A stretch of DNA of 57,015 bases, filler included, from Sluysia triapertura (GCA_046118255.1; 4 parts of 4 records of this genome joined end to end with filler, not necessarily neighbours in it), one strand, 5' to 3'. Positions 2,599 through 57,015 are shown, counted from the whole stretch's first letter. Notes: generated from the sequence alone by a model not told the origin. Translations and numbers: made by a program.

Positions 2599-3240
2599 CT
2601 GTTTATATAACCAGCTTCTTTAGATAACGTTTTACTAGATTGAGTTTCTGCTTTGATTATATCTTCAAATCCAGCTAAATCACACAAACACATAAAACTT
2701 CGATTAGATTCACCGTGAATTTTCGATAGACCTTGTAATCGAATTAATGTTATTAAATGTGATCTAGAACTGGCTGGATTAAGCGCAGTATGAGCCACTT
2801 TACGCTTAGTACGACAAAGCTGTATGAAAACTTCAGCATCACTTTCACTATTTATCGGAACAGAACGCAGCTTCCATACCACAGTCCACGTATAATTGAA
2901 TACCACCTTCTCCTGATAATAAATCCAAGCAATTATCATTATAAATTTTTACAAGACAAGCTCCTATTTGATACTCCTAATCTCGACTACGCAAGTTCTG
3001 CTCTTTTAACAAAGTTGTAATAGCGTGTTGCATAATTCCATTTTCACTTTCTACATCTGAATTTCTACCAATTAATGTATATGTTTTACTACCAGCTTCA
3101 CTACCATATGTAATAAAACATACATTGAAACCATCAATAAATGGCATAACTAAAGGTCTAAATTCTTCATAAATATCATGTTGTTCCATGGAACTAGAAA
3201 ATACTTTATCAAAATCAAAACGTTCTTGCGGTGAAATAGG
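2599..3240 (-). pseudogene. Kinesin motor-domain exon fragment (kinesin-14/KIFC-like), disrupted
   Basis: Joined frames read ERFDFDKVF...IDGFNVCFITYGSEAGSKTYTL (degenerate P-loop)...RD*EYQIGACLVKIYNDNCLDLL...(frameshift ~2865)...HTALNPASSRSH (switch I)...LCDLAGFE (switch II)...EAGYINR, then a GT donor at 2598. It carries an in-frame TAG and a frameshift. Confidence 0.85.
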
Positions 3241-6468: not shown

Positions 6469-7912
6469 TGAACAAATTGCATAAACTTATTTTGCATAAA
6501 AGAGTTCTCTTTCTTGATAAATTTCTGTTAAAATAAAATTACATAAAATTATAATGAATAATAATAATAACAATAAAAGTAAATAATAGTAGTGAAATAA
6601 ATAAAACCGACAATAATATTATGAAAAATAAAATCTTTCTAATTTCAAACATGCTTCTCTTAAAATTTTATCATTGTTTTCTTGGAATATAAAACGAAGT
6701 GCATAAAATTCTTCCTTGTAATTTCTATTTCTTAAACTAAATGTTCTTATTAAATAGTCTTTGAAGGAAATAAAGAGCATTGTTCTGAACGAAACAATAT
6801 CATTAATTATTGCAGAATTCTTCTTCTCAACCTATTTCTTTATGTATGTTAAACATGATTTTTATACGAACTTTATACGTATATATGGTTATTCAAAAAA
6901 TATTTTTAGAAAATAGTGTAATTATTTAATTTATATTTAATTAATATTTTTAGAAAATTGTTTAATTTATTTAGTTATAACAAAAATTTTCAATGTTAAT
7001 CGGTTAAGTAAATTAAGAAAATTATTTATACATAATGTAAATTAAGAAATTTGTAATGCAAACTGAGAAAGTAGTTTATCCAATAATTGTCGTTTATTTA
7101 TACGTAATGTAAAGTAATTATTTTGATCGACATAATTTTGTAATATATTTGTAGACATGAATAATATAACTAAATAATTTTCTAAATATAATCATAGACA
7201 TAAACAGGACAATTATCAAATATAAAAGGAAATAACTTTCCTATCATAGACACAAATAAAATATAAATCTTTGCAGCTTGGTTAATTTTTCGAGACAATA
7301 TAACATCTTTTGGAGATTTAATTCAAATTTAAGAAGATTACAGCATTTATCGAAAATCAATTGAAAAGATTACATTACCGAAAGCAGATTAACATAAATA
7401 GTCGAAAGGACTTTATAATTGAGGGATCGATTCTGCGATACCAAATCTTATCAAATTTTTCCATGAATTCTTCCGAACAGTAATAAGCTTATTTCTTTTA
7501 AGGTTTTTCACAATAATATTGTTTGTGTTAAATTAATTACATAAAATCTTTTTAATTTTTGTTAAAAGAACCCCAAACATTCACCTGGATCAATCTAATT
7601 ATAAAATATAACTCTTGTTAACGTAAAAACATAAAATCCTTATTATATCATTTATATACATCATATTAATATTTAATTTTGTGTAACGTTATTTTTATTT
7701 TTACATCTTTTTTAAAAATATATACCGAGTTTGATTTTAATTTATTTTGGTTTTCTTAAAGGTTAATTAAACTTATTGTTAAAAGAAATAAATCATAAAA
7801 TAGACTTTCAAAAAAAGGTTATAGAAATCAGGTTGAAGAATCAATAGTAAACGACCCTCTGACATTAATAAATATTAAATCGTGAAAATTGCTTTAATTG
7901 TAAGGAATCTCT

Positions 7913-7965
7913 CCTATAACTAAGTCTCCCGAGAGAAATAAATCTTAGATTATAGGCGAACCCAG
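7913..7965 (-). repeat. Structured dispersed-module core, copy E
   Basis: Reverse complement GGGTTCGCCTATAATCTAAGATTTATTTCTCTCGGGAGACTTAGTTATAGG aligns with the cores at 21.9, 50.9, 51.5 and 52.8 kb. Confidence 0.6.
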
Positions 7966-19687: not shown

Positions 19688-21719
19688 GTTAATTATCAAT
19701 TTTTGTATATCAGTTTTGCTCGATATTTATTATAAATTTATTTTGCCTATATATTTTCTTTGTTTTTTATTTGCTAATTTTACATAAATTAAAAATAGAT
19801 TCGGTGATAAAAGTCAGCGTTTTGACATTTTCCTAAAATTAAAATAATAATCTTTCAAAAAATGCGTTTTTCTGTTGAATATATAAAATATTGAGATGCA
19901 CGAAAAAATCATTTGTTTTAATTTTTTAGTTTCAAGACAATTCAAAAATTTCCAGAATAAATTTGAGTAAAAAATGTAAATTAAATTATATGAAAAGTTA
20001 CCTAGTTTAGATATACAAAGAAGCAGCTTTTTCAGGAAATATAATAAAACATTTATGCACAAATTTGTAAATAGTTTACTAAACAATATATTAGATTAAT
20101 ATTATTTTATATTAAATTATAAAATAACTTTTGTTTAAAAATTTCAGTAACAGTTTTAACTCACTTTCTTAATAAATATTGAATATCCTAAGAAAATATA
20201 ACATAATTTTATTTCCGTAGATTTAATTTTTCTTGAATGAATTAATCAGAACTAATTTCATACATAATATGAGTTTAGAAACCTAGATTCAATAAACGTA
20301 ATACATAATATAATAATATAACACTATAATAAATATATTTCTTAATAGAAATTGTCTTATTATTACTTGAGCAATTATCAAGGTCTCTTGTTTCAAACTA
20401 TTATTATCTTAATTATTCTTAAACTTTTAAAATAATTTTACATAACTCTAAAAATTAAGTAAGATTATAATTTTAATAAATATAACAATTTAAATTAATA
20501 TTGATCTACAATATGGTGAGACCTTCTGAATGACATGTTTTGGAATTAGAATTATATAATAGCTCTTGCTTACATTAATATTAAAAATTCTTTTTAATAT
20601 TTAATAAATCGGATTTAACTTCACAACGTTAACTTAAGTAAATCTGGCTTTATAATTATTTAATAAATCTTATTATTCAACTTTTAATTCTCTAAAAACT
20701 GTTTAAGTTTTACCATGTTCTTTAAACTTATTTATAAATCTTCTTTATCTGAAAATCAGAGTTCTACTCGTCTCTGATGTACACAAAATAAATTTATGTA
20801 TTAAATGTTATAATGTGGTAGATTAATGAACGTATAATAATTATAGTACTGAACTAATATAATAAGTATGCTGAATTTATAATATGTAATAACATTAATT
20901 ACAATAAAATACTATTAATAAAAGAATAATAAAATAATAATATAACAATAATAATAATAATTAATATTTAATAATATATTAATAAGATAATAATAATGTG
21001 AGGGAATAATGTAATAAAAACAATTTGTGTTCCATTCTTTAAATATTAATTATTTTATTTTATTCGTAAATATTAATTATATTATTAGACTTAAAAATTT
21101 TTTTATTCTAAAAAAATATTATGAATATTATAATAAATTTAAATATTAGCTAGAAAATATTAAAAATATTTGAAATCAATTTAATTTAAATCAATCAGTT
21201 TAATTTGTTTAAACTAAGTAAATTTGTTTAATGTCAACATTACAAAATGGCGGACATAAAAATAGTATAAAATCTAGAAATTTTAATAACCAAAACACAA
21301 TTTTTGGAACATAAATTTTGATACTCAATTTTTGGGACACAAATATTGGATTATTTGTACAGATTATTTCGTCTTGGAATCAAAACATGTCGCATAACCG
21401 AAACATTCCATGCAACAAGTAATTCGTTTTATATAAGCAATTTCGACTCTACCTTATATAGAAAAGTTTAAATTATTACTTAAAATTCATAACAAACTTG
21501 CAAGAACATAAACAGGCTTGCTTAATTATTTTTTAAAATTATTAAAAATTTGCCAAGATAAAAATTGTCTTAAGTGATCAAATAAAATTAATATCGTTAT
21601 AATTTTATATCAAGCTTTTGTCATATCTTCAGTAAAAGCTTTATTAGTACATTTGTCGAATAAATTTGTGGTGTATAAAGTGTTATTATATTTTTATTTA
21701 AAATCAGTTAAAAGATTTG

Positions 21720-21989
21720 GTAGACTTTACTAAGGCTAGTTTAACGTCAAAAATATATAAAATCTTTTATTAGATACGCTAAACCATATCAGACTAGCTT
21801 AACTGATTACACAACTAGACCATAAGTCAGCTAGTTTAATTTGAATTAAATTTAGTGATACGACGTACTGACTAGGTGTAGGATAACGTCCTTACTTAAT
21901 AAGTTCAATTCTCTAAGCATATTGAAAATCCTAATAGACCGCCTCCTATCAGATATAAGCCGTATCTATTAGGTGAACTCGTTTCCAGA
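21720..21989 (-). repeat. Structured dispersed module, copy B (core 21925-21989 plus 3 hairpins at 21720-21842)
   Basis: Core reverse complement TCTGGAAACGAGTTCACCTAATAGATACGGCTTATATCTGATAGGAGGCGGTCTATTAGG aligns with 52799-52860; it is followed on the minus strand by AACTAG..TATGGTCTAGTT-type hairpins. Confidence 0.8.
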
Positions 21990-24677
21990 TTCATATTTTC
22001 ACGTCATAAGATAGTGAAACTCTGGCATTAATAATAATAATAATAATAAAAATAATGGTAATAATAAAAAAATTAATAATAATATACAACAAATAATATT
22101 AAAAATGTATGTTCAATATTCAGCAGATTATTCTAATTGCTTTTTATTTACTTAATTATTGTTTTATTATTTCAAGTTGAAAATATAGACTAAAATGGTA
22201 AGTGCTTTTCTTTTTGTTTATTTAATTAAAAATTATTTATTTGTTTTGTATATAAGACTATTAAGGTTATTAATTTTTATTTTTTTAATTATTATTATTT
22301 TATTATATTATTCATGTTCTGCATTAATTTTAGATCCGGATTCTGGATTCCTTACACGATATAATTCGATAATACCATCATAAATTTAATCATAATCCAT
22401 TGTAAGTTAAAAAAATAAGTGACATTACACGTTATATAGTTTTCCTATTATAATAAACACATAACTTAAACAAACTATATGTTTTAACTTTTAAGACAAT
22501 TACATCAATTTAATACATAAATTAGAGATAAATATTACTTAAGTATGTTTTATAAAAAACGATAGTATAAGAATTGATAAATGAATCTTTAGTTTTAATA
22601 ACATCTACGATTTTCCTGAATAATATCGTAATTTACGTAGCATTTGACTTTCATCGAAATATACAGCCAAATAAAGTTAATTAACAAAATCAGAATATAA
22701 TTAAGAATAAACTGTTTTAAGTAAACCATACATACGAAAATTAAAATTTCGTCAAATTACTATATTTAGATAGTGCGCAGTAGAAATCAAATGTGAAGTA
22801 TAATAAATAAAATCAGCAAACATTTTTTTCTTTATCGTCATGCAAAATGTTAATTAACTTTTGAGTTAAAACAAAATAACGTTTAAAATAACAAAATAAC
22901 GTAATTCAATGATTATGCTTCTCAATTTATTACATGTTCTTACATTTAAATTAACTTAGCTGACAAAATGAAAAGTCATTGTTCGCACATTAATTAAAAA
23001 CACTCAAAATGAAAAAAATCTTGTTTCAACATATACAAAATTCTATAAATAACGAAGACATTTTCTAAAACTTAATGGCAATATTTAAATTTTTTGTATA
23101 AGTGGTGTGTAATATTTTGTAAACATAATACTCATTTTTACTATTAACATTTTGTAAATAAATAATGTTCATTTTAAATTAAACTTGATTTTAATAAAAT
23201 AATGTTAAAATAATAATGCTCAAAAAATACTAAGATTATAATGCTTTATTATCAATTTAAAATGATTACATGCAGTTAATATAAATTCAAAATTTAGTAA
23301 CAAATAACAATCATATTTAAATTAAATTTGTATAAATAATCATTTTAAAGTGAGATTTTAAAGTTTTTTACAATAGGTAACCTAAATAACATCCTATATT
23401 TCGAAGCTTATTTCCACAATACAGCATGGCAAATGGATGCTGCGGTAATAAATTTATGTATTTTAAAATTGTAGCCTTTAGATCAACACATTTTCTATTA
23501 AGAATCATTTCAAAATTACGATTTGAAGTTAGTGGACGGTTCAATCTGCAAGAATAAAGGTTGCACGAGTTTAGAAAATGTTCAAAAAATCTGTTGCGGT
23601 GTAGTTGATCTTATATCTGATAATAGTGAAGTAGAGGTTAAGGTGAATGACAATTTTTCTGTTGTTTGTTTTATTATTTTGTTAGTGATTGCTCTAATTT
23701 TATAAATGTTAACGAATTTTTCTGCGTTTCATTGCCTAATAAACAATGTCAAGTTTGTTTATTGCTAAATCATTTAATATGTATAACGTTTATTAAATTA
23801 ATAAAATTATTTAGTAATAACATAAACGTTTATAATAAATTTATTAAGTTAATTAATTTGAACAATTTATCATTCAAAGAAGTTAGTAAAATTTATATTT
23901 TATTTTCAAACGTTTCATCTAATGTTAATGAAAAATTTGAGTATCCAAAATAAGTAAGTAGCGCCATAGATCATCAGTTATATAATATCACTTTTGAGTT
24001 AAATATAATTAATACTTATTTCGATAAAGACACTTAGTCCGCAGATAATTCGGCTCATTCTATGTTCTCCATAATAATAAACAAGACATTAAATAAATGT
24101 CTTCCTTTTAATAATAATTTTCTAATAATTATAAATGGTCTAACCCATATCAATAAAATGAGTAGGTATCAAATCAAAGTTTTTAATATATTAAATTTTT
24201 AATTAGGTTGACTCAATGAAATGCGAAATGACGAATATTGTAACCAATTCATATTTCATTAGGTAATTGACAAAGCCACCACACAGTGACTTTTATATTT
24301 TGAACAATGTCAATAATGACATTGAAAATGATAAAAATATAGTTGAAAAAATTAATTTTTATAATTATATTATTGATATTATTATTATTAAAAAGATAAA
24401 ATGAAACTAAAATATCTTAGTAATTTGATAAATTAAAAGTAAAGTCACATTACATCTTACCTTAAAGAATTGTAGTGAAGTTAAAATTCTTTCTGTGGTG
24501 GTCCAACCCATGTCAATAAATTTTATTACAAAATCAATTCATAACAAAATATATATATATATCGCAGCATAAAAACTAAATACTAAATTTAACTCACACA
24601 AACCTTAAACATTCAACCGCTTTTCTTATACTTAATATATTCAACCTCTAATAACTCTAATTGTAATAACAATGGTA

Positions 24678-38500: not shown

Positions 38501-38549
38501 ATATTGATGAGATTTGTGATGGAAGTGTCAAGACTCAGTGTAGCAGCAT

Positions 38550-39147
38550 AAGGTGAACATTATTTAAGAATTAAAATAGGGTATTATGATTAACTGTAAT
38601 GGTAAGATAAGTATATAAAATACTTAAATCAAGATAAAATAATGAGAGACTATGAAGAAATAACCCTTTGCAGGGTTTTATTTGTTAAAATGTTAAAGTA
38701 CAGTTGTTAATTAACTTAATTAAAATTTGTTTAATTTGATAACCCAGTAAAAATGTTTGCTCATGACAAAATGATATTGGATTTATGCATAATAATGAGT
38801 TTTATTATTGTTTTTAAGGATGAAGTATTGCGAATAATTAATTAATTATTTTAATTAATTTTTATTATTTAAAATTAAAGTTAAATATGTTTCAATGTCT
38901 AAGTATTATAAAGTACATGCTAACATGTGTTGGGATTAGTAAAGAATAAGGGTTGATAGAAGGGTCAAAACTTAGGATAGCGGTGTCAGTGGAACGTTAT
39001 TAAAAAATCAAGTGGAGGCATTATGATGAATTGAAATAGCAAGATAACTATAGAGAATATTTTAATCAATGTAAAATAATGAGAGATACGAAGAAACAAC
39101 CCTGTAAAAGGTTTAATTTGTTAAAACATTAAAGTACATTTGTTAAT
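38550..39147. repeat. Diverged tandem duplication (~440-bp period), cut by the gap
   Basis: 38550-38710 aligns with 38990-39147 (e.g. AAAATAATGAGAGA..GAAGAAA.AACCCT....TTTGTTAAAA..TTAAAGTACA.TTGTTAAT). Confidence 0.75.
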
Positions 39148-40720: not shown

Positions 40721-42454
40721 TGCTTAAATTTATGTAATTATCCAATCGAATTGAATATTTCATGTTCAAACAAAATATGATCCCTTACATGTCAAAGTGT
40801 TTGCTAACTATAATGTAACTGTAATTAGACAAAACATTCTAGAAACATGTATAACCAATAAGATTCAAGCTTCACAAGTATAAATACCATAAAAGAAAAA
40901 CTCTTATTCATTTGTCAAATATAATTTTTAAATATTGTGTATCAAGTGTCTTCAACATGTTGGAAATTCCAATGTCAAATTGATATTACTGATTCAGCTA
41001 CAAATGGCAATAGTAAACTGATTTTGTGTCGCCTTTAATAATTCTTTGTAGATCAAAAAAACGAGAAAAAGAACGCATTCGTTAAATTTCTTGACCACCA
41101 TTTATCTCTACAAAAACAATTAAAACTTCATCATAAATCTTTATCTAATGGTACAAAAAGGTGTTACAAAATCGTACAGAAAAGTCACTTTCCTCACAAA
41201 CGAATAAGTCAAAATTAAGAATAATTTTGTAATATTACAAAATGCATGATGGTGAAAATTACACAAGCAGAAAAGTTAAAATAAATACTTAAAATCAAGA
41301 TTATTAAAAGTCAAAGCTCCAATTATTGGGGGAATATACAACTTGGACTTATTTTTAATTATATCGAATATACCGAAAATTCCAAAATATATAATAGTAA
41401 TAATAGAAAAATATATAATTCCAAAATATATAATATAATAATAGAAAATTCCAGTAATATATAATACTGTATAAACAAATTCAACATACTGCATATTTCT
41501 TTTCTAAAGTAAATTTAACACCAAGTAAACAATAATAATTTTTATAACGATAAAAAATTATCATATATATGTTTGATTTAAATTTTTTGTGTATTAGTTG
41601 TTATATTTATACAAATTCTCGAATAATAATTCCTTAAACAACAAAGAAAATCTTAATTATTCTTTAATTCTCTAAATATATCTTCAAATTATGTTGCTTC
41701 AAACTTTAATTTTCGTCTATTAATAACCTAAGCTCTTTATTTTTCTTATTATTCGATTATTGGCTTATCTATCTTATCTGGAAATCTTAGTTCGAATACT
41801 CGTTCCTATGGCAGGGAATAGAAACGCAAGATCGAACAAAAGTGACTATTAATAATAATAATAAAGTTTAATTCAGTAACTATTATTTCTAAAAAGAAAA
41901 TTTAATTCTTAGGGGTTTCTACCTCAAGTAATTCAAATCAAACAAATTAAAAACACTATTTATTCAACAAAAAAAATTTCAATTTATTAATTGTAGAAAT
42001 AAATTAACAATATAATTACGAATATTAAAAGAATATTTTAGCATAAAATTTAACAAAATTTTAATTGAAAATATACAAATTTCAAATTATCCATAATTAT
42101 GGATAATTCTCTAAATGCTATACAATTTTGTTGCAAAAAGAACGAAATAAAATTTAGACATCCAACGTTACTCTAAGTATATATTTTTTTCAGATTTTTT
42201 GTTCTTTGTTAATAAAAGTATTAAACCTTGTTATAGTTTTAAAATTGTTAATTTTTACAGGCCTTAAGCTTGGTTTGTTAAAGGTTTCGAAATTAAAGTT
42301 AAATTGTTTTTATTTCGTTAATTTTTAAAATTTTTTAATAAAAATTTAAAAATAAATAAAACTAATCATAATTTATTAAAATTAAAGCTCAAAAATTAAA
42401 GGTCTTAAAATTCGTCAAGAAATGATTGTCTTTTCATATGATTCATTACGAAAG

Positions 42455-42522
42455 GATCAGTTAAAAATTCGAATTGGAGTACATTCCGGTAAAGTAGAAC
42501 AGGAGTTGTCGGATACAAGAAG
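42455..42522 (+). pseudogene. Class III nucleotide (guanylate) cyclase catalytic fragment
   Basis: DQLKIRIGVHSGKV/TGVVGYKK matches LKIRIGIHSGPVVAGVVG.K; frameshifted and truncated. Confidence 0.75.
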
Positions 42523-42535
42523 TCCTTGTCTATAG

Positions 42536-42764
42536 AATAATTTTCATGAATTATTACTATCGATGAAAAATGAAAATAAGTCAGATATTCTTATATGTGC
42601 CCAGAAATTACAAAATAAATTTCCAGGAAGCTCGCGAGGAGATGATGCACAGATTTTTCTTGATTTTTTTCCAAAAACTATTTGAAGAATTGAAAAAATT
42701 GAAACATGAAGAAAATATTATCTGAGAATATTTTGATGGAAAACAGAAATATTTTAATTTATGC
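42536..42764 (+). pseudogene. Ubiquitin-specific protease (USP) fragment, QQDAQEF box region
   Basis: FHELLLSM...KFPGSSRGDDAQ/FLDFFQKLFEELK...NII*EYFDGKQKYFNLC matches F...QQDAQEFL..L...L...II...F.G......C. Confidence 0.6.
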
Positions 42765-45495
42765 TAATATCTTTATCCTGACACTTTTCACATATGTTAG
42801 TTATGTACTAATTAATTTCAAAGTTACGTGATAAATACTTTACATGCTTATAAGGATACACTGTTTTCTTGCAATCTTTTATAATTTTTAATGACCATTT
42901 TTATTTATTTATAATGTAGCCTTGGATAAATTATATTAAAAATAATATACTGGAATAAATAATTTATTTTGTTAAATTATGTTCCTTTTGATATTAATGC
43001 TTGTACATTATGGTAATGTATTGTTATTGTAAACCTTGTTATTGTTTTAAAATTGTTAAGTTTTACAGGCCTTAAGCCTGGTTTGTTAAAGGTTTCGAAA
43101 TTAAAGTTAAATTGTTTTTTTAGTTAATTAATTTATTTATTTGTTTTCTTGCAATATTTTATAATTTTTAATGACAATTTTTATTTATTTATAATGTAGC
43201 CTTGGATAAATTACATTAAAAATAATATACTGCAATCAATAATTTATTTTGTTAAATTATTGACTTAAACGACTATTTTTGCCAATTATTATTGAAGTTA
43301 AGGCATTTTGCACAAGTAATCTTAATAGTTATAATTATAATTAATAATTATAAATCTTAAAAAATATAAATCGCTTTTCTAGTAAAATTGGATTGGGGTG
43401 TTGTTTTTAAATTTTACGTGTTTCATACTCCTTAGATTTATAAAAATATGATAAAGAAACTATAATAAGAATTTAGACAAGTAAAATTTATTTAAAATTC
43501 AAAACCAAAAAGTAAAAAATGAAATACAATAAAATTAAGTAGGAAAATTATGACAAATTAAGTTAAAGCAATTATTAAGTATAAGTACACATTTATCTAC
43601 TTGGATGGGCGCGAATTGTTTAAATAAAAAATTATAACATAAAATCTATATTTATTATTATTTGAATATAGTAAATGAAAATAGATTTATATCCCATTTT
43701 TATGTAAATATAAAAAGTCAAGATAATTAACTATTAATTGCCTCGACAATAATAAAATAATTGTTGTAATTTAAGACAATTATAATAAAAATTTAGACTA
43801 GTTAAATTTATCTAAATTATAAATTTTATTTCAACTAAATTAAACAATAATTAAAATATAATTGTAAATAATAAATAAAGCTTATATTATAATAACTCAT
43901 GCGAAGTGACTCTTCATAATGCCATAATTATTATCACAGGAACACAATTTTGTTTATTCATGCATTCATAAAGTATTGATTGCATATAGCATTCTTCCAT
44001 CTATACAGTATATGTTTTGACATTAACATAGTTTTTCTGTCAGATCCAGTTTATTACAGCAAAAAGTACATAATTTCTTTGCTAAATTATTTTTTTATTT
44101 TTAAGTGATAAGTAATAATAATTATACCGTTATTTTAGTATAATATTCTGTTATTTACCAAACGCATGCAGTCACCTTTTTAATCACTTTACAGGGCGAC
44201 AAATCACTGTAAAATTTTTGTAGTCTTTACTTTAGTATAACTTGTATTTTTTAAATAAAAATTAATATGAAATTTTTATATTAAAATAAAAATTTTTCAG
44301 TCAATTCTTTTGATTTATATAATTTGACACATGACCAAGTATTGGATAAGTATTTTCTCTGTTAGACTGCAAAATTGAATCTTTAAATTATAGCTTATAT
44401 TCATTTTATATTTATATTTTATTCATTGAAGACAATACGCTTTTTCTATCTCTTTATTTCATATCTTACTTGAAAGAATCTAGCTTCATGTTATTCATAT
44501 GGTGGTTCAGCCTTTTTATTTAAAATTTATGCTTAAACAAATCAACAAACATCACTCATTACATCAGTACAAACACAAACCAATTTCACAACCCTTTGAA
44601 ACAGCCAAGTACTTTATCATGTAAAATCCTTAAACTTTAAGATAACACCTGACACAATTTTGATTGTAAAGTTCAAAAGAAGCGAGAATTATACGGTTTA
44701 GTTTATGATTTGTATTCAGTACATACATCTTCCATAAGATTGTGCATCTTGAAAAATCATTTTTATGTCCGTCATGGTTCAAACATCCCAATTCCAAAAT
44801 TATAACCTAAGCTGCATAAACTAACTGGTGAAAAGCTGAAAGTAAAGCGGGTTACTCGTGATCACATCTGATGTTTATGTTGCATTTTAGTAACCGTGAA
44901 CGAGAAATAACCATAAACTTAAATTTTGTGATGAAACTTGTCTAGCTCTAATCGAATCTACGTGCACCAGTGTCGCAAAAGTTGATACAAATGCTTCTGA
45001 ACATCTGTTTACATAATAAATCTTGATGTACAACGAGATTGAGTATGTTTTCTTTATTCTTATATGTAATAAATCGATGTTATTGTATAAACATCTAACG
45101 TCTCGTTTTTGGGTAGTTTGTCCATGAAATAAAAATAAATAATATTTAATTTTAATAATGATTTTTGTCTCAATAATTGTATAAGTTTTCATAATGAATT
45201 ATTAAATAAACTTATATGTTGTATAGAACTGAGTTTATGTAACGTTATTTTTATAAAAATTAACAATAAGGTCATCAATGTATTATACAAGATTAATACC
45301 AAATTTAATACCAAAATTTATTTATTTTTATCATAAAATTATTAAAATGACAAATAACGACATGATACAGTCAAACATCATAACTCATACAAAATATTTT
45401 TCATTATCATGAATATAATAGCACACAAACATAATCTCATTCAACCACCTCACACAACCGAAACAATAATATTTTTACGAATGATCGTATTACTT

Positions 45496-45561
45496 TTTTA
45501 GACTTCGTAAATTGGACTGACCGGGAATCGAACCTAGGACCTCTCGCTGCGTAATTCAATG
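45496..45561 (-). mobile_element. 3' half fragment of the tRNA-bearing LTR
   Basis: Reverse complement ..CGCAGCGAGAGGTCCTAGGTTCGATTCCCGGTCAGTCCAATTTACGAAGTCTAA matches the LTR 3' half. Confidence 0.8.
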
Positions 45562-46397
45562 AATTTGAATTTAATGCATTTATTTCAACACGAATAAGGA
45601 TTGTTATAAGAAAATGTTCATAAAAATGCTGCACAAAAGTTTATGCATAATGTGAGTCAACACAAACAAATAAGGGCAAATTAAAATAAAACAACGAATT
45701 ATGAAAAAACTTGAATTAATTAAATTATAAAAGATAGTATAAATAAAGATAAAATTAATCACCCAGAGTAGGGAATATGAAAGCCGGCAAATGTGTAAAA
45801 CAATTTAGAAAAAACACGGTTGCAAAAATTTTTTACAATTCACGGGTTAAAAACATCCAAGAAGTGAAAATGAAAATAAAAAGTATTAATAATTACAAAT
45901 TTGGAAAAGGTGCCTACGGTAAAAGAAAGCTAGCATATAGCGTAGAATAAGATAAAGGAAAATCCCCAGGTGAATAGTATAAAGAGAATAAGGAGTTAGG
46001 AATGCCCGGATAAAAGTACAAGAATTGAGAAATTAGGAGTGCACAAAAAAGGTTTCTACACAATATATACATTTTACAATTATTTACAAAAGAAGGTAAA
46101 AGGAAGGAAAGTCTACAAATAGAACGTCCCCAGAAAGTTAAAGTGTTTACAAAAGAGAGGAATTGCGTGCATAAAAAAGAAGAGAATGGTCCTTATAAAT
46201 GTTAAAGGATGACTCCAATGACAGCTTGATACACTAGCGCGCTAACTCAGTGATATCAGCTTTGCGGAAACTTAACTTTTTATGAGAATGTCATTTTCGG
46301 GATCCCATGAACCAACTACAAAATGTCAAGGTATTGGGATATAGTTCTGAGATGCCACTTAGTATGGTTGACTATTCTAACCTAAACATTGTTAGAA

Positions 46398-46469
46398 GGG
46401 CTGACAGCTCAGTGCAACAGCATTCGAACTGCGCAGCGAAGGTCCCGGGTTCGATCACTAATCAGTCCA
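46398..46469 (+). ncRNA. tRNA-derived (Ala-like) cassette in the 5' LTR; not a canonical tRNA
   Basis: GGGCTGA/TCAGTCC acceptor stem, degenerate A box, GGTTCGATC B box and TTTT downstream; anticodon arm is non-canonical. Confidence 0.7.
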
Positions 46470-46600
46470 TTTTACAAAGTTTAACATTTGGTGAGCCCAC
46501 ATATCGAATACCCTTCTGATGATGTATATGATGTTTGAAGACAAACATAATTGAATTGGGTGAGATATGTTGACTATTCTAACCTAAAACTTGTTAGACG

Positions 46601-46673
46601 AGGCTGATATCTCAGTGGTAGAGCAATCGAACTGCGCAGATAGAGGTCCCGGGTTCGATCCCCGGTCAGTCCA
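46601..46673 (+). ncRNA. tRNA-derived cassette in the 3' LTR
   Basis: CTCAGTGGTAGAG D-arm, CCGGG-TTCGATC-CCCGG T-arm, TCAGTCCA followed by a T-run. Confidence 0.75.
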
Positions 46674-48439
46674 TTTTATGAAGTCTAACAAAGGGAAACC
46701 TAGCATTTAAGTTCCGATTGGAGTTTCTCCCGACGACCAGAGTACTTAGCAATATTAAGTGACCTGGGCGCCATAAATTTGTCACAATCGATAGGTGACT
46801 TGACATCAATGAGAAAGAGTTGGGTCGAATTGGTACCCTGTACATGAATGTCGGGTTTTCGGTAATCATCAGTAAGAGGGTTTTGTGTGTCTTACTTAAC
46901 TGAAAAGCCCTTTGTATAAGTTTACTAGAAAGGCATTACAGTATCTTATTATGACCCACTGCACAGACATAAGACAATCGTTTCACATTCAAACCCGCAC
47001 CAACGACAAGTGACAGGAAGATTAAGCCTAATATTTTGTGGGCAGAAATGTTTTTTGATTGTTTAGTTGTAGGGAAAATGGACGACCAGATAAGGAACTT
47101 TTCATAAAGAAGTCCACAAAACGACCCTAGATTTTGTGGGATTTCCAAGTGCTACTATTAGAAATATTAATCAGTTCATGAAGATATTTCACTACTTTCA
47201 CTTCATCAAAACGATTTAATATGATCTCAAAGTCACCAAGGATGTCGCAAGTAATACAGAGTTTAATATGGTCCTCATAATGAAGGAAGGAGATAGAAAT
47301 TCGATATTTATATTGCAGATTGAGGACAGACCGCCGAATTTTGATCCACCAAGTTTGGATTCAACCATAACAGAGCATTAAATAGATTTTCGACTTTACT
47401 CAGTCTATTAGTGGCAACTCGGACAATTTCATGGGAGGAAATAGCCTATGTAACAAGTCAAAAAACTGGTACGAATAAGGTCGGTACGACTATTGAAAAG
47501 TCTAAAAGCGCAGCCTATGTTCTGGCGTATATAGTCGTCGTAGAAAGAAGTCAAGTCTAATCCCCCGTGATTTTTGTTAAGAGGGAAATTCTTTAAACCT
47601 AAGAAGCCCTTGAAGAGATGGTTGACCTTTTCATCATACCAGACTGATTGGGGAATGTTCTAGGATTGTCTGGTATAAGAACTGCAAAGGGTTTGAGTGT
47701 TTATATTAAGATTGCGCATAAGGAATTTTAAGCGCGAATGGATAAAATTACGAAATTTGTTCCGACAACGTAAAGTGGAATCTTTCACTTTCTCGGTCAG
47801 CGCTAAGTTTTCCTCATGGAGATCAGTCAGGTTGCGCTTTTTTACTTCACCAAACAAAAATAGTATTGATAATACTCAAAGTAGATTATCAAATTATTCA
47901 ATTCTAACTTCTAACAATCAAAATTACAATGTTCAAATCGATCAACCTAAGGAGTTGAAAACTACAAAGCAATCACAAAGAAGAAATTCAGCATTTTATC
48001 AACCATACCAAACCTTACACGATACTTCAATCAATCTTTAAACTAACAAAACATATACTGCAACACAAATAACAAACCCTCATGAAATTCAAACCAGGTA
48101 CAAATAAATAAGTTTTAATCATGAAAATTTTGCAGAATGACACGATTACAATGCGGGCTAGAAACCTAACGTGCAAAAGTTATAATATTAAAAGTCATAA
48201 TATTACCCAACTAAACACTCAAACGTATGGTTTACTTTTAAGTCTCAACCATTACGCTATAATTTAAAATTCAGCAACTATAGCATATTTCAAGGGCCTG
48301 TAATCTTAATAAATCATCAACTACCTGATGGGACAGATGATAATCCGGAATATCCACCTCAATCAACTTCAGAACCACTTACTGACGTCAATATGACGTC
48401 TTCGTCACAATTCTTTTTGTACAATTCAGTTTCTTCAAA

Positions 48440-48615
48440 TACATGGTTTTATGATCGTCAAAGTCATGTTCGAAACAAATTCAATTAAACACCAAAATGC
48501 GAAATTCAGTCATGTTTTAGCTACTTCCAAGCAAATTAAGCTCTAAAATCCAGGTGTGCTTTGCTTCAAAGACACAGCATACGACATCAAACAGACAGTC
48601 ATTCAACAATACCGT
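48440..48615 (+). pseudogene. Ty3/gypsy CsRN1-like gag N-terminal remnant
   Basis: WF/IVKVMFETNSIKHQNAKFSHVLA/LPSKLSSKIQ...AYDIKQTVIQQY matches WF...E..F....I.....KF.HV...LP.......Y..LK..LI. Confidence 0.6.
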
Positions 48616-50595
48616 CCCATTGAGGCTCCTTATCGCCCTCATGCGGTATCTTAAGTAAATCTATTTTCGCGAATTATATTCTATTATTAAATACAATATT
48701 ATTACAATTATTAAAACAAAATTTGAGAAAATAAATTATTTTTATTTTCTGTTTTGTTTTGATTTATTTAATTTATTTTAAAAATTTATTTTATTAATTT
48801 TACATATCTTACATTATACTTTTGACTAATGAAGCTTTTTCAATAATGTCATTATTTATAAGTAGATGAAAGTATTTTTCATAAAAGATAAAATAAACAA
48901 TAAGTTAATTGAAAAAGAAAATATTCTCATAAAATATTATGTTTATAAATATGCATGATATACCAAAATTATAAATTGTAAATTTAATAATATCGATAAT
49001 GGATATAACTAGTTTATTGATATAAGATTTTCCGAAACTCAGAAATTTCTACTGAAAATATATAACATTAAAATGATATCTACGTAATTTATAAAAAATT
49101 AAATTAATTTGGGTTGATTATAAAATCTGAATAAGAAATTGCTTTTTTAATTTTTTTGGTTGGTTGAGATTTATAATTTAAATTATGTAATAATTTATAT
49201 AATAAAATAATCACAATTTTACAATTCTCGAGAATATAGTACATGAATTATTTATATATTTTAAATTAGTAATTAAGATTACAAACTGTATACTTAAATT
49301 CAAAAAATTAAATTAAACAATATGTAAAAATTATTTTTTATTATATTTTTAGTTATTTTCTTTTATAAGTAGTTAATTTTTAAATTAATTATTTTGCATT
49401 TGAGCTAATAATAATTTGTAATTGTATATTATATATAGTAGTTATATAAATGTTATATTATTTTAATTGAACATGTTAAGACAATATCCAATTCAATATC
49501 TTTACAAAATCCATCGAAAGCTGACTCAAATTAATTGCTTGAAAATCCCGAAATGATCTTTTATGAGTTATTTATATCAATTTTTGTATGTGCAGGTTAA
49601 ATGCACGGTTTAAGTATAATGTAAAGTTATCAATTGCAAAAATATCAGAATAATTGCTACGAAGTCGGAAATTCGACTTAATTAATATGAATTTCGGTTT
49701 TATGTCGACTAATATAGTAATAAAAATTTAACAGTAACTTACGTTTTGCTATTATTCAGCAATTATCTAAAAATAATGAGTTTTGTGACAAACTAACTCT
49801 TACCCCTTCAGAATAATAAAATCAATTTTATAACACATTAATTATATCAATGCTTAATGATGCAATAATACATGAACTTAAATAAAAATATAAATCTAAA
49901 CACAAAAATTATTTCCAAATAATAACTTCTGTTACAATGGGTATGTCATGTCAATTTCAATAAAATGTTTAAAATGATTTCTTAATGAACATTAATGAAG
50001 GTATGATTACTATAACATACAGAAATTTATAAATATGAAAATTAAATAAAATTAATTTTTTTAGGTCGACTTGTTCCGTATTTTTCGGTCTTCGCAACAA
50101 TTAATACACAAAATTATTTAGCAAAAATGACTTAAATAATTTTAATTGCATTAATTAGTAAATGTACTTAAATTTTTTTCGTAAAAACGTAAAACTTTAG
50201 AAATTCTTGGATCCTTCACTTTACAAATTACGATAATCTTATATATATACCTCATACGTTAACCACCCCAACATTATAAATATCATTTTCATACACGATA
50301 ATATATTTATTAATATTATTATATGAATACAATTATAATATGTAAATTAGTAATAAAGAAACTGATAGAGGTATTGCTTACTTAAAAAATAACTTACGAT
50401 TATAAATGAAAAATAATTCACTTTATAAACGAATAAAGTTTCATTATGACTGCATTAATGACGAGTGAATTTTTCATTAACGTTCGCTAACAACAGTTTT
50501 TGCCATGATGAATTAATTTTGTTTCTATATAGTTTTTTTTTCTTATTATAATTAAGAATAAAAAAGTCTAACTTAAGCTATTTAAAAACTTGTAT

Positions 50596-51005
50596 TAGAC
50601 TTGTATTGGCTAGCTTAATTTAAAGTTAAATTATTTATAAACTTAAAATCATATTTTCTTAAATACATTTTAATTGAATATTATTATATTTTTTTGTCAT
50701 TCTCCCTTGAATTAATATAATTTTGTTATTTCAACAATCTTTTAATTTACTCTAAAAGCGTAATATAAATTTAAATTCAATTAATTTTTAAAACTGGACC
50801 ATAAATGCTAGCTCAACACAATGGCTAGTTCAATCTTCATAATAAAATTAATGAAATTAAGATTGAGAGCTATATCATGCAGTAAGATTACCGAATTAGC
50901 ATAAGTTATCGTTAACGTAAAGTCACGCGCATTCGATAAAAATTCTAATAAGATGTCTTCCGAGTTGATATAAATAGTTCTTATTAGGCGGACATAACCT
51001 CCAGA
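50596..51005 (-). repeat. Structured dispersed module, copy C (core 50941-51005 plus hairpins at ~50596, ~50794, ~50820)
   Basis: Core reverse complement TCTGGAGGTTATGTCCGCCTAATAAGAACTATTTATATCAACTCGGAAGACATCTTATTAGA; hairpins such as AAATTAAGCTAGCCAATACAAGTCTA on the minus strand. Confidence 0.75.
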
Positions 51006-51510
51006 TATTTCGTAAGATTAAGTTTTAGCTCTTGCATAGCGACTATAAACATAATTTCTTACGCTTCTTTGTTTTCCTGCAACTAAATAAATAAATAAAT
51101 TGATTTGATTTATGACATTAGTTGGATTAGTTATGTAATGAGTCCCGCAAAGTAGCAATTGCACTGAAAATCACTAAACTCATGTACATAATAAACCCGA
51201 AAATTACGAAATGTTAAACTACACAAACATTCGCATCGACTATGACGATATTTTTCAAAAAAATACACAAATGATAAACGGCTATTTGGCATGGTAAAAT
51301 ACTGTTAAAACATCTGCAGAAAAATTCATTATGATGCTAAATAATTTATCACAAAGGCACGTCATATTTAAAACATTGCACCGGTTAGAGTGCTCAGATA
51401 AATCACAATCTAATTTAAAACATTCGCTATATTGACAATGTTATGGAAATGATTTAAACAGTCAACTTCCATATCAATATTTTTTATCAAAATATACTTA
51501 CAAAATAAAA

Positions 51511-52010
51511 TGAGGGTCAAGTTCACCAAATAAGCACGATTTATCTCTGCGAGGAGGATTAGGCTTTTTACAATTTTGAGTTAGATATTTAATCGTCAAT
51601 TATGTAGTTTCGTGAGTTACTGGTCAAAAGACGTCAGGTAGCTACTTATTGAGTTACTTAAAGTTACGCAATAATATTGAAACTTTACAAATTAAGCTAG
51701 CCGTTATGGTGAAGTCTGTAATACAAATTGAGCTAGCCTTTATAATTCATTGAATTTTATGCTATTTTAAACCTTACAAATTAAGCTAGTCCTTAAGGTC
51801 TAGCTTATAATCAAAGATTTTAAATGAAAATTAAGACTATGTGACACAAGTTCAATTAATCAAATCTCTTATAAGTCCAATTTGTCTTGTACAAATAAAA
51901 TAAAATACAATTATAATAATAGCAAAAATTTAACAATATTTAAGGAATAGAAATCCTTAATATAATCTAATGATATTAAAAAATTAAATTAAGCTAGCCG
52001 TTATGGTCTT
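51511..52010 (+). repeat. Structured dispersed module, copy D (core 51511-51569 plus 4 hairpin units)
   Basis: Core GTTCACCAAATAAGCACGATTTATCTCTGCGAGGAGG-ATTAGG (short deletion); AAATTRAGCTAG units at ~51689, ~51725, ~51778 (TAAGCTAG-T-CCTTAAGG-T-CTAGCTTA) and ~51986. Confidence 0.75.
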
Positions 52011-53004
52011 CACAAAATTCAATGAATTAAAGTAGTAGATTAACTTCTTATAAATGTAAGAAAAACCATCAAAAACAAAATTACTTTGACATGGATTGAA
52101 ATCTTCTTATCTTGATGATTAAAATAACTTCTGGTTGAAATAATGTGTATGGAAAATTTTCATTATGGTTACCATTGTTTATTTAAAGAAAATAAATACT
52201 TTTACTTTATTTAAACAAAAATTATTTAAAATTAATTAATTTTAAATTTTATGATCATCAATTTTAATTTATTTATACAAATTAAATTTTAATGTATTAA
52301 TTTTAATGTTATTTAATTTTACAAATTCAATATTATATTTTTAAATTATAAATTAAATATTATTTAATTTTAGAATATTTAATTACAATATTTAATAATA
52401 TTTATAATATTTATGATAAAAATTACAGTTCATAGTTAAAAAAATTATAAATTATAAATATGCATTTTAATTTTAACTCAAAGATAAACTCAACACAAAT
52501 TTTTGAAAAATTAAAGTATTACTCTTAATGTATTGCTGTTAGTATTGCTGTTGTTTTCTTAATTCCTAATCTACGGCAAAAGTAAAATCGAGCAGGGCCG
52601 GTTACAGTAAAAGACTTATGATGTAAAGTTGGCGTTCCTGTAACTATTATCTGACGATATTAAAATATTTACTTTAAAAATACCTTCGAGTTGCTCACAA
52701 AATTCTACTTTAAATATGTTTAATCAAAAAAACTTCTTAAGAGGGTCTTAAAATATTAACTCTGCGAAGATTTTCAATTAAACTTGCAAAAATATAATTC
52801 TGGAGATGAGTCCACCTAATAGAAACGTCTTATATCTGATCGAAGGCGGGCTATTAGGTTTTTAATATTAATCAGAGTGACTAAGATTGATCGTGCAATT
52901 CTAGTTTAAATTGGTCACGTACAATTAGTAATCTTTCAGTAATTTTGTAAACAGTCACGTAAGCAATACTATTCGTTGTGTAACTGTTAGTTATGTAATC
53001 GTTA

Positions 53005-53160
53005 TGTTGGGGTAAAGAGGCCTAAAGTGCCATTTGGTAAAATTGACTATAATTAAATAAAATATTTAGGTGGGCAGATAGCTCAGTGGTAGAGCAACCG
53101 AACTGCTCAGCGAAGGTCCCGGGTTCGATCCCCGTTCAGTCCATTTTACGAAGTCTAACA
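53005..53160 (+). mobile_element. Solo LTR of the tRNA-bearing TRIM family
   Basis: TGTTGGGG...CTAACA, 156 bp, flanked by GTTA/GTTG (4-bp TSD, one mismatch); aligns end-to-end with 46332-46486. Confidence 0.85.
53072..53143 (+). ncRNA. tRNA-derived cassette in the solo LTR (intact A and B boxes)
   Basis: GGGCAGA-TA-GCTCAGTGGTAGAGC...AGGTCCCGGGTTCGATCCCCGTTCAGTCCA-TTTT; TGC sits at the anticodon position but the anticodon stem does not pair. Confidence 0.75.
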
Positions 53161-53859
53161 GTTGGAAGGATTTAACTAATAATAATAATTTACAAAATTT
53201 TAAGTTAGCCTTTTTACAGTCTAACTTTGAAACTAGTATTTTAAATTAGCCTTTACGTTCTAATTGTAAAATTTCTTTTTATATTTTAATATATTTAGCT
53301 AGCCTTATTATGGTCTAGCGAGAATAAATGATATTTTATTTATTTAATAAATAAAGACGAACATATTTAAAGCATATTACCAAATTATTAAAAGAACATA
53401 ATAGGAATTTTTACAGATAAAATAAATATAATAATGATAATTAGATTAGCACTTAAATCTATTGATTTAGTGCGATAAATTTAAATGAAAATTGACTTAG
53501 CCATTTACGGTCTAAGTAAAAACAAATTTAATAATTTTGCATGGATTTTACATTCTCTCGTTTACAGTAAAATTCAATAGATAAGGTCGTAAATTCTCAA
53601 TTAATCTTTTCTAATATATTGTCAACTTATAGAGTTTCAAGTCAACTTATTGATTAAGGAACCACCAATTTTATACCGGCAGTAATATCTTTAACTTTTA
53701 CAGATTCCATTTAAGGAAGATTAAGTATAAAGTATAGAAGATTTTATGTTATAAATTTAATTAGAAGATTTTAGTCCTTGTAACAATCTAATTACAAACA
53801 TTTTAGACTATCAATACAATTAAACATTAAAGTCGATTTAACCTCCATACGTTTTTTGA

Positions 53860-55110: not shown

Positions 55111-55144
55111 GTATCAATATTGACGCAATGGTGGCCACAATATT

Positions 55145-56176
55145 ATGAATAATTACTTTTATGATACAATGAACAAATCACTCCTTGCTAATCACAAAGA
55201 AATAGCTATAAACTGCATTTACAATTTATCCGATATATTGGAAACCAGCTTATATCTTAGTAATATATTGTTTATCGAATTCTACAAGGAAACAGTACAG
55301 TCTAACGGTTTTAGCAGTGCATTCACCGCCGTAAAAGATTTCACTGTTGCTAATATGTCATTCGAAGATGAACGTCGGAAAGATTATAAACAAATATCAA
55401 CAACTAGTCATCACATGTTTATGAATCGATACTATGTGTTCGTTGAAAAGCATAATCGAAGTCAGAGATTAAGTCCGAAATTCAATTTATAGCCAATCAG
55501 GTTGTTTATATTTGTTAATCCCAATTTCAAATGTTCGTAACATGAAATTAAATGCTAAACCAGACCAATTTGTTTGACTATACTCTGATAATGAAATTCA
55601 ACTTGAAAACTCGGTCTACTCAAAAAATGTTAATGATCGTTCACTTCTGGTCATGACCAACAACAAATTTAAAGTAAAATTCTTTATGCTCATTTTTCAA
55701 AAAATGTAAAGTTAACAAGTATAGTAATTCTAATTTTATATTTGTTTCATATATATGTTCATTTATGAATTTTGATATTGAATTACTGGATTCACTTAAT
55801 AATCAGGAGTTTTGTCACATTTTCTACTTTTAGTTCAGAAGTTGATCATATTAATGTATACTTTGTTTTTGGAATCGATTTTAAATTAGTTGATAGAGTC
55901 ATAGTGTACACGCCCAGATTATTAGTTTCGGTGAAGAATTCTAGTCTCAAAAGACATCACATCTCTAAAGGATGTATGAATATTATTGTGAACAAAGTTA
56001 AGTCTTTTGTAGACGTTTTTAGAAATAATTTTAAAGGCCTGTATATAACGAATCATGAGAGTAACGTTAAATCTAAACATGTATATGAATTACCTAACTA
56101 CGATGAAATAGTGATACTTAATAAATTAAAATTATATTTATTCGAAATAAAAATAGATCTGTCATATAGAATTTAA
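55145..56176 (+). pseudogene. Intronless orphan gene broken by stops; possible distant paralog of 26149-27325
   Basis: ORFs 55145-55492 and 55772-56176 are colinear; C-terminal RLLVSV...LYLFEIKIDLSYRI compares with RLVVEV...LFISEIK...MYRI. Confidence 0.45.
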
Positions 56177-57015
56177 ATGTACTTATCAAACTTTGTTTGA
56201 CTTTCCAGATACATCGGTTTGGAAGTATCCAATAAATAAATAATTAAACGACGTAAATTTTATTTTTATTCATTTTTTTATAAATTAAACTGTTATTTAT
56301 ATTCAGATGATCTTTGTAAAACTTGGCGAAATGATAAGCGTCAGGATACTGCAATTAATCTAACATTTTATGTTTTTCCACTAGATATAGAGTCTTTATG
56401 TATTATAGTCTTATTAATGGTAATGTATAATTACGCTACAAATAAATTAGGTTTTAATTTTAATAGTATCAAATACAATGAACTTAAAATTAGTAATATG
56501 AATAAAGACACAATGAGAATTAATTATAAAATGAAAAGATTTTATTATCACTCAAGGTTAAGGTTGAAGTTCTATCCTCAAGTATTATCAAATGTACTGA
56601 AGTCTAATACAATAAATTTAAACACACTAAATACCATTCCATATCTTTTAAATAATATATTTAATAATATATTTAATTCTTCGTAATTCGTCTTTTCTTC
56701 ATTCACGTATGAAATTGTAAAATATTGATTATTTAATTTGGCTTTTCATGGATTTTGTGATTAAATTTGATTTGATTATAACGTTGTGATTATTTTTAAA
56801 TAACTGAATATTGATTCTAAATTTAATTACATATTGTGATAATTTTATTAATAATTTTAATATTTGGAAAACTTTATTCAACTTATTTAATTTTTGGAAA
56901 TTTTATAATAATGGACATGATAAAGGTATTTTGTAATAATTTTATTGAATTTTAATAATATGTATGTAATTATTTTTTAATTATTAAAATTATTGAATTT
57001 TAATAATATGTAATT

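What the first reader, a model, noticed from the sequence alone, without database searches (positions are those of the whole stretch)
50596..53520. Unrecognised non-coding module: covarying ~60-nt stem-loop core followed by an oriented array of hairpins (5 copies on 3 contigs)
Seen in sequence: five diverged copies of a core GT(T/C)CRCCTA(A)TA(A)G...YTTATNTC...RRRG...CT(T)ATTAGG lie at 7913-7965(-), 21925-21989(-), 50941-51005(-), 51511-51569(+) and 52799-52860(+). The closing stem is kept by compensatory change: CCTAATAG/CTATTAGG, CTAATAAGA/TCTTATTAG (matched indel in both arms) and CCTATAA.CTAAG/CTTAG.TTATAGG. Four copies are preceded by an A-rich CTT...AAATA motif and followed ~100-350 nt downstream, on the same strand, by 3-4 hairpins of one family. 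Copies C and D are head-to-head ~500 bp apart and copy A is in tandem with D. No ORF explains the conservation, and the motifs do not match tRNA, hammerhead, twister or histone stem-loop consensus as I know them. Inference: a structured RNA or ssDNA cis-element of an undescribed mobile element or endogenous virus (packaging signal, origin or LTR sub-structure), or a new ncRNA family.
Basis: partly seen in the sequence, partly recalled or inferred. Interest (0 to 1): 0.8.

Follow-up and report, generated by a model that had tools for sequence, protein, structure and literature searches.

The report
Structured mobile repeat with hairpin array
An AT-rich animal genome carries many decaying copies of a protein-free repeat built from a conserved folded head and a row of small bulged hairpins; it is most likely an undescribed mobile element whose hairpins dock borrowed proteins, but its class, expression and function are not shown.

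Summary
The observation mostly holds. Four cores are true homologues (61-86% identical, flanks at background); the fifth (7.9 kb) is not above chance and has no array. Each of the four is followed, on the same strand, by 3-5 bulged hairpins. The hairpins covary (0/500 shuffles); the core's closing stem is mostly invariant, not covarying (88/500). An unreported 4-bp hairpin precedes it. Contigs of one public run show a dispersed repeat: 24-90 contigs on the cores against 3-19 beside them, other copies joining core to array, and majority letters that pair where the window's copies do not (6 of 6). So these are decaying copies of a well-folded master element, not unique genes. Rfam, ribozyme descriptors, Pol III boxes, LTR and Helitron termini all failed or were inconclusive, and RNA versus single-stranded DNA is open (G-U 8, A-C 8). 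Best reading: a non-autonomous mobile element, probably moved through RNA, class unassigned. The tRNA-like piece inside copy D is a separate Helenus-type solo LTR.

The parts
51006..51016 (-). Module A: A-rich CTT...AAATA lead-in motif
50939..51005 (-). Module A core: small hairpin P1 (50989-51003), long stem P2 (50944-50988), T-run
   Evidence: 25-35 contigs laid here
50788..50837 (-). Module A: two overlapping bulged-hairpin units
50547..50624 (-). Module A: one decayed unit (50592-50624) and one weak unit (50547-50578, E 0.55)
51497..51508 (+). Module C: lead-in motif; another copy's match begins at 51496
   Evidence: table 8, record 4
51509..51569 (+). Module C core: P1 (51511-51525), P2 (51526-51563, 7 nt of 3' arm missing), T-run
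   Evidence: 24-52 contigs
51690..52017 (+). Module C array: units 51690-51720, 51722-51743 (half unit; its 3' arm is present in another copy), 51779-51809, 51987-52017
   Evidence: tables 5 and 5c (joint 51743>51812)
52576..52650 (+). Separately repeated segment 150-220 nt upstream of core D; may belong to D-type elements (inferred); limits approximate
   Evidence: 101 contigs at 52612; fold not significant, z -0.7; one copy in the window
52783..52798 (+). Module D: lead-in motif
52799..52863 (+). Module D core: P1 (52801-52814), P2 (52815-52858), T-run
   Evidence: 90 contigs
53005..53160 (+). Secondary insertion, not part of the module: 156-bp tRNA-containing solo LTR (Helenus-type), TG...CA, 4-bp target duplication with one mismatch
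   Evidence: loose ends at 53005 and 53160 and a joint skipping exactly 160 nt
53198..53521 (+). Module D array: units 53198-53230, 53239-53269, 53292-53324, 53490-53521
53754..53797 (+). Possible further D unit (weak, E 0.65)
21925..22010 (-). Module B lead-in motif and core: P1 (21974-21987), P2 (21930-21973), T-run; best preserved copy, 86% identical to D
21441..21841 (-). Module B array: units 21809-21841, 21773-21804, 21714-21746, 21498-21527, weak 21441-21473
7912..7964 (-). Copy E: core-like hairpin, membership doubtful; no P1, no T-run, no array

Best explanation
The module is the conserved part of an old, multi-subfamily, non-autonomous mobile element of about 0.5-0.8 kb. SHOWN: it is dispersed and multi-copy; core and hairpin array belong to one unit; core and hairpins are conserved while the linkers are not; the hairpins keep pairing, a fixed one-base bulge and a 2-bp cap while loop length varies; genomic copies decay after insertion. 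INFERRED: because pairing rather than spacing is kept, the signals work on a single strand. The element is most likely transcribed through the core into the array, the repeated hairpins bind several copies of a protein borrowed from an autonomous retroelement (capsid or reverse-transcriptase complex), and the core serves as the 5' processing, initiation or dimerisation signal; new copies arise by reverse transcription, and the array gains and loses units by recombination. Selection acts on the few active masters, not on each copy. I put 'mobile element of some class' at about 0.85 and this RNA-mediated version at 0.45.
For: Multi-copy: 90, 24-52 and 25-35 contigs on cores D, C, A against 3-19 in their flanks; summed depth 1,100-10,000 against 18-20 for single-copy contigs (the tool warns that depth is no copy number, so only the order, tens to hundreds, is meant). 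One unit: 6 of the 15 joints shown (of 80) link the D core region to just before the first hairpin, and another copy supplies the missing 3' arm of C's half hairpin and lacks one unit. Islands of conservation: cores 0.61-0.86, flanks 0.48-0.59, background 0.53. Hairpin covariation, same-strand arrays. Decay: all 6 of the 40 listed variant positions (of 327) that fall in a defined stem change a mismatch or wobble to a Watson-Crick pair in 86-99% of the depth. P1 pairs 4 of 4 in all four cores with different letters. The genome has active-type retroelement machinery nearby in kind: a TRIM and a broken non-LTR element.
Against: No class-defining feature was found: no primer-binding site, paired LTR, target duplication, poly(A) tail or common 3' end. 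No strand bias in the hairpins: G-U 8, A-C 8, so RNA is not shown. The core stem does not covary significantly; whole modules fold no better than shuffles (z -0.2 to -1.3). No autonomous partner ORF adjoins any core. Paired changes in near-palindromes can also arise by template switching during DNA replication (own knowledge). The repair of pairs by majority letters is expected for any decayed copy of a palindromic master and does not itself prove function. The one run laid may be the window's own source.
Confidence: 0.45

Rival explanations
1. Non-autonomous rolling-circle element (Helitron/Helentron-like): the core is a terminus read as single-stranded DNA by a Rep/helicase, and the hairpins are central tandem repeats or stacked CTRR-type stop signals.
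For: Conserved end with variable interior and internal tandem repeats are typical of these elements (PMC4067079, PMC11417382, passages). Three of 4 cores begin with TC, two of them after an A; most units carry CTAG or CTAA at the foot of the 3' arm; no target duplication found; no strand bias.
Against: The lead-in motif is conserved upstream of the TC, and C lacks the TC; no subterminal inverted repeat of the head within 3 kb that is shared between copies; CTRR lies inside the hairpin rather than about 11 nt after it; no common 3' end; no RepHel domain detected near the cores.
Confidence: 0.23
2. A multigene family of host small RNAs (polymerase III type, 50-70 nt, ending at the T-run) with many pseudogenes; the downstream hairpins are separate regulatory or RNA elements.
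For: A-rich motif upstream and T4-T6 straight after the stem in 4 of 4 cores; flanks diverge as around RNA genes.
Against: Three of the 4 confirmed copies carry stem-breaking private changes; no A or B box in any core; no Rfam match; core and array travel together.
Confidence: 0.12
3. End region of a cut-and-paste DNA transposon: the units are palindromic subterminal transposase sites in double-stranded DNA, and the apparent covariation comes from palindrome correction.
For: Units are near-palindromes with no strand bias; a hAT-like (recalled label) CAGGGCCGG motif lies 190 nt upstream of D.
Against: Spacer length varies from 4 to 7 nt while the bulge is fixed; no inward-facing partner module on any of the 3 contigs; the CAGGGCCGG motif has no inverted partner in the window.
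Confidence: 0.1
4. Remnants of an endogenous virus (terminal hairpins, origin or packaging region).
For: Only the general look of repeated hairpins.
Against: No viral ORF nearby; 0 of 41 pattern hits in viral contigs have the closing arm or the upstream box; nothing for the unit or in phage records.
Confidence: 0.05

Closest known systems
Non-autonomous LTR elements (TRIM/LARD; Helenus, Ajax, Cassandra)
   Same: Protein-free, multi-copy, many families, small-RNA-like structured parts; a Helenus-type TRIM is present in this very window (PMC10886601, parts 2-3 and section 3.8 read).
   Different: The module shows no TG...CA ends, primer-binding site, paired LTR or 4-5-bp duplication, and no tRNA or 5S match.
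DINE-1 / HINE non-autonomous Helentrons and non-autonomous Helitrons
   Same: Conserved core near one end, central tandem repeats, stem-loops, no duplication (PMC4067079, PMC11417382, passages).
   Different: No subterminal inverted repeats found; the repeats are themselves covarying bulged hairpins; termini undefined.
Non-LTR retrozymes / Penelope pseudo-LTRs
   Same: Structured non-coding monomers of a few hundred bases, dispersed or tandem, in animals (bioRxiv 10.64898/2026.07.22.740005, parts 1-2 of 5 read).
   Different: No hammerhead core in any module; no tandem monomers of high identity.
SINEs with a conserved domain
   Same: Conserved short domain shared by diverged subfamilies, fairly fixed 5' edge.
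   Different: No polymerase III boxes, no tail.
Repeated coat- or capsid-binding hairpins (MS2-type operator, retroviral psi stem-loops; recalled, not tested)
   Same: Stem, single bulged base, 2-bp cap and short loop, repeated in one orientation.
   Different: No sequence match claimed; no cognate protein known; may act as DNA.

Membership tests
LTR retrotransposon / TRIM (the module) | Primer-binding site (TGG) just after a CA end | tested here: not met
   No CA(N0-3)TGG in 250 nt after cores A, B, C, E; D's two hits lie inside the inserted LTR
LTR retrotransposon / TRIM (the module) | Two near-identical LTRs in direct orientation | tested here: not met
   Only same-strand pair on one contig is C-D, 68% identical, both with arrays
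LTR retrotransposon / TRIM (the module) | TG...CA ends with 4-5-bp target duplication (solo LTR) | tested here: inconclusive
   Ends not defined; only AT-rich shared words at inconsistent distances
Helitron (HLE1) | 5' TC inserted after A | tested here: inconclusive
   TC at the start of 3 of 4 cores, but homology continues 15-25 nt upstream
Helitron (HLE1) | 3' hairpin followed by a CTRR end | tested here: inconclusive
   CTAG/CTAA lies within the hairpin arm; no common terminus
Helentron / HINE (HLE2) | 12-15-bp subterminal inverted repeats at both ends | tested here: not met
   No shared inverted copy of any head 11-mer with at least 3 G/C (1 mismatch) within 3 kb; none at all for A and C; copies may be truncated
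Helentron / HINE (HLE2) | Central tandem repeats | tested here: met
   3-5 homologous units per module, variable in number
Helitron or Helentron | Autonomous RepHel partner sharing the termini | not testable with these tools
   No genome held
SINE | Internal polymerase III promoter (A and B boxes) | tested here: not met
   Box patterns (recalled) hit only the inserted tRNA-like LTR
SINE | 3' poly(A) or simple-repeat tail with target duplication | tested here: inconclusive
   No common 3' end in 4 copies
Retrozyme / hammerhead | CUGANGA box, helix II and GAAA | tested here: not met
   2 of 22 boxes in the window fall in modules, outside the cores, neither with GAAA within 45 nt; no Rfam hammerhead hit
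HDV-like, twister, pistol, hatchet, hairpin ribozymes | Family fold and catalytic residues | tested here: not met
   Own HDV descriptor 0 hits in 5 modules, twister motif 0 (descriptors recalled); Rfam to E 5-10 gives nothing on the cores
Any self-cleaving RNA | Self-cleavage in vitro | not testable with these tools
   Needs an assay
Helenus TRIM (the inserted 53005-53160 piece, not the module) | tRNA-like sequence with A and B boxes in the LTR, not a working tRNA | tested here: met
   Rfam tRNA 36 bits with unpaired anticodon arm, no ARAGORN gene, boxes at 53079 and 53122
Helenus TRIM (the inserted piece) | TG...CA LTR, 4-bp duplication, tRNA primer site, short internal part | tested here: met
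   Solo LTR with 3-of-4 duplication and an empty site; full element 46332-46690 with perfect 4-bp duplication and TGG two bases after the first LTR; the second LTR is shortened at its 5' side

The most novel reading that the evidence does not exclude
The core is a new kind of functional RNA domain, for example a self-cleaving or self-priming RNA of an unknown fold, that defines the 5' end of a new class of non-autonomous animal element, in which a tandem row of bulged hairpins recruits a borrowed capsid or polymerase like a natural multi-copy coat-protein tag. Fixed loop letters on both core hairpins, conservation across subfamilies whose linkers have lost all likeness, and failure of every known class test leave this open.
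Probability: 0.12. Interest if true: 0.85.

Novelty: new variant of a known kind. Interest (0 to 1): 0.45.

Why it matters
Undescribed repeat families are routine in unstudied invertebrates, which caps the interest. This one stands out because its anatomy points to selected single-strand signals: a head kept across subfamilies and a repeated hairpin with a fixed bulge. With hundreds of copies in one assembly, covariation and termini can be settled at once by computation, and cleavage or protein binding by simple assays. If the head is catalytic or the array is a capsid-docking tag, it would add a new RNA motif and show how protein-free elements hijack partners in animals. The Helenus-type TRIM found on the way seems far more abundant than the families counted in PMC10886601 (at most 5,575 LTRs), if depth is a fair guide.

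Tried and rejected
Whole genome: none held, so no genome-wide model search. Rfam: nothing on cores or units, window-wide to E 5 and locally to E 10 for A, C, D. Pattern scans: viral contigs 41 hits, 0 of 41 with closing arm or upstream box, judged chance; unit pattern 0; tRNA-like repeat 0 in viral and metagenome contigs; core 0 in metagenome and prokaryote genome contigs; phage records 0. Exact patterns would miss diverged relatives. Sequencing runs: one holder, no RNA holder listed; no evidence on expression either way. Ribozyme, promoter, Sm-site and histone stem-loop patterns: none informative. Likenesses to 5S rRNA, 7SL/Alu, Y/sbRNA, spliced-leader RNA, SECIS and group II domain V were considered from memory and dropped: short, not collinear, and not picked up by Rfam. 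A as 5' region of the broken non-LTR element at 46.7-48.6 kb: rejected, 2 kb of AT-rich DNA lies between and the ORF is cut in the RT domain (read by eye). A and C as the two ends of one element: rejected, they face outwards and are 61% identical. Shared 3' motif: only 3 of 100 shuffles reach the count, but positions are inconsistent. Taxon: PDCD6 exon best hits 67% to a brachiopod and a snail, cadherin exon no hit, atlas uninformative; left at 'animal, possibly spiralian'. Read-through Pfam scans covered 3.3-9.3, 19.8-28.1, 46.7-48.4 and 55.0-56.8 kb only; 48.4-55.0 kb was scanned as open frames only. Literature: 8 searches (listings seen) showed no description of this module; Repbase and Dfam could not be searched, and supplements of PMC10886601 were not opened, so 'undescribed' is limited to these searches. 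Earlier scan notes: none on this genome or sequence.

Full report
Setting. The window is four contigs joined by spacers, about 25% GC, from an animal: exons of a kinesin, PDCD6 and a cadherin and an ankyrin ORF are present, and the PDCD6 exon is closest, at 67%, to brachiopod and snail proteins. No whole genome is held. One public run holds the stretch, as contigs only, and may be the window's own source.

The cores. Leave-one-out profile searches recover four (A 50939-51005 minus, B 21925-21989 minus, C 51509-51569 plus, D 52799-52863 plus) at E 2.6e-5 or better, but the 7.9-kb copy only at E 1.3; a covariance model of A-D ranks it among chance hits (E 0.43). Among A-D the cores are 61-86% identical while 54 nt upstream of the lead-in motif and 80 nt downstream are at background (0.48-0.59 against 0.53+-0.05). 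P2 is mostly invariant: 5 of 8 pairs never vary and 88 of 500 shuffles reach the covariation score. Folding z-scores of the cores are -0.2 to -2.5 and of whole modules -0.2 to -1.3.

The hairpin array. Fifteen units, plus three weak ones in line with them, lie 84-890 nt downstream of A-D, all on the core's strand; E has none. A unit is a 5-7-bp stem topped by TAG/CTA, one bulged T, a CC/GG cap and a 4-7-nt loop. In 13 aligned units (two half or overlapping units left out) 78% of cells pair and 8 cells change on both sides; no shuffle of 500 reaches this and slid registers fall to 18-47%. The shuffle ignores relatedness; by eye there are about five independent paired changes. G-U and A-C mismatches are equally common (8 and 8), so the working strand, and RNA versus DNA, cannot be read from these copies.

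The family in the genome. Laying the run's contigs on 50400-53700 at 80% likeness gave 25-35, 24-52 and 90 contigs on cores A, C and D against 3-19 in the adjoining flanks, with summed depth of about 1,100, 1,400 and 10,000 against 18-20 for single-copy contigs. The tool warns that depth is no copy number; I take only the order of magnitude, tens to hundreds of close copies per subfamily. Of 15 joints shown (of 80), six link the D core region to just before the first hairpin through other sequence, so core and array go together elsewhere. One other copy begins to match at 51496, the start of C's lead-in motif, carries the 3' arm that C's half hairpin has lost, and lacks one unit. Of 40 variant positions shown (of 327), six fall in defined stems (50944, 51514, 51528, 52850, 53218, 53258); at all six, 86-99% of the depth has the letter that makes a Watson-Crick pair. 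The window's copies are therefore decayed versions of better-paired masters. The very high depth at 53218 may include cross-mapping from the LTR end, which looks similar.

The insertion in D. The tRNA-like piece is a 156-bp solo LTR at 53005-53160: it starts TG and ends CA, loose ends pile up at both places, a 4-bp duplication (3 of 4 matching) flanks it, and one contig skips exactly 160 nt. A full element with two such LTRs, a TGG primer site and a perfect 4-bp duplication lies at 46332-46690. These features match Helenus TRIMs as described in PMC10886601. It explains why D's array lies further from its core.

What it is not. No Rfam family matches cores or units. Hammerhead, HDV-like and twister descriptors, polymerase III boxes, primer site, paired LTRs and subterminal inverted repeats were tested and not found; target duplications and a common 3' end were inconclusive. 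Nothing comparable was found in viral, metagenome, prokaryote or phage collections, nor an adjoining transposase or viral ORF.

How it most likely works. Shown: a dispersed unit whose folded parts outlast its linkers and whose copies decay. Inferred: the signals act on a single strand, because loop length varies while pairing and the bulge stay fixed. The simplest mechanism is a non-autonomous element copied through RNA, with the array binding several molecules of a borrowed capsid or polymerase and the core acting as 5' processing, start or dimerisation signal (0.45). A rolling-circle element read as single-stranded DNA is the main rival (0.23; features from PMC4067079 and PMC11417382, passages), then a host small-RNA family with pseudogenes (0.12), a cut-and-paste transposon end (0.10) and a viral remnant (0.05). 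Two earlier scan notes report hairpin arrays in non-autonomous animal LTR elements of other genomes; they are unchecked leads and no support, and those elements had LTRs that this one does not show.

Verdict. A real, apparently undescribed structured repeat (8 literature searches, Rfam; Dfam and Repbase not searchable), working like a non-autonomous mobile element but a member of no tested family. Interest 0.45; a new catalytic or capsid-docking RNA system remains possible at about 0.12.

Noticed in passing
window 46332-46690 (+), 53005-53160 (+), 45493-45560 (-): Helenus-type TRIM: tRNA-containing LTRs, primer site, 4-bp duplications; one full element, one solo LTR, one fragment. Summed depth over 20,000 times single-copy suggests tens of thousands of LTRs (rough).
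   Followed up: partly
window 46700-48650 (-): Broken non-LTR retrotransposon fragment, judged by eye from a cysteine knuckle, a restriction-like endonuclease motif and RT-like motifs (labels recalled); no Pfam hit. Its 3' end abuts the TRIM.
   Followed up: partly
window 52576-52650 (+): A second conserved island upstream of core D (101 contigs), holding CAGGGCCGG and a GTTACAG/CTGTAAC stem; resembles both a hAT-type end and Gypsy LTR ends (recalled). 52636-52705 resembles the last unit region of module C (72% over 71 nt).
   Followed up: partly
window 53140-53160 and 46585-46600: The ends of the tRNA-containing LTR resemble the arms of the hairpin unit (TTAGAC ... GTCTAA), which may point to a shared origin or shared binding protein; untested.
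   Followed up: no
window 35044-35128: Near-perfect 85-bp palindrome; Rfam mir-196 match below the gathering score on both strands, more likely a MITE-like foldback.
   Followed up: no
window 9971-11077 (-): Intronless ankyrin-repeat ORF with a low-complexity 35-residue repeat tail, cut by the contig end.
   Followed up: no
window 55124-56686 (+) and 26149-27242 (-): Runs of 120-240-codon open frames with no Pfam match, possibly decayed transposon ORFs.
   Followed up: partly
window 42222-43260 and 38517-39147: Local duplications (94-96% and 77% identical).
   Followed up: no
window 2586-3267 (-): Divergent kinesin motor exons with a non-canonical P-loop-like stretch.
   Followed up: no
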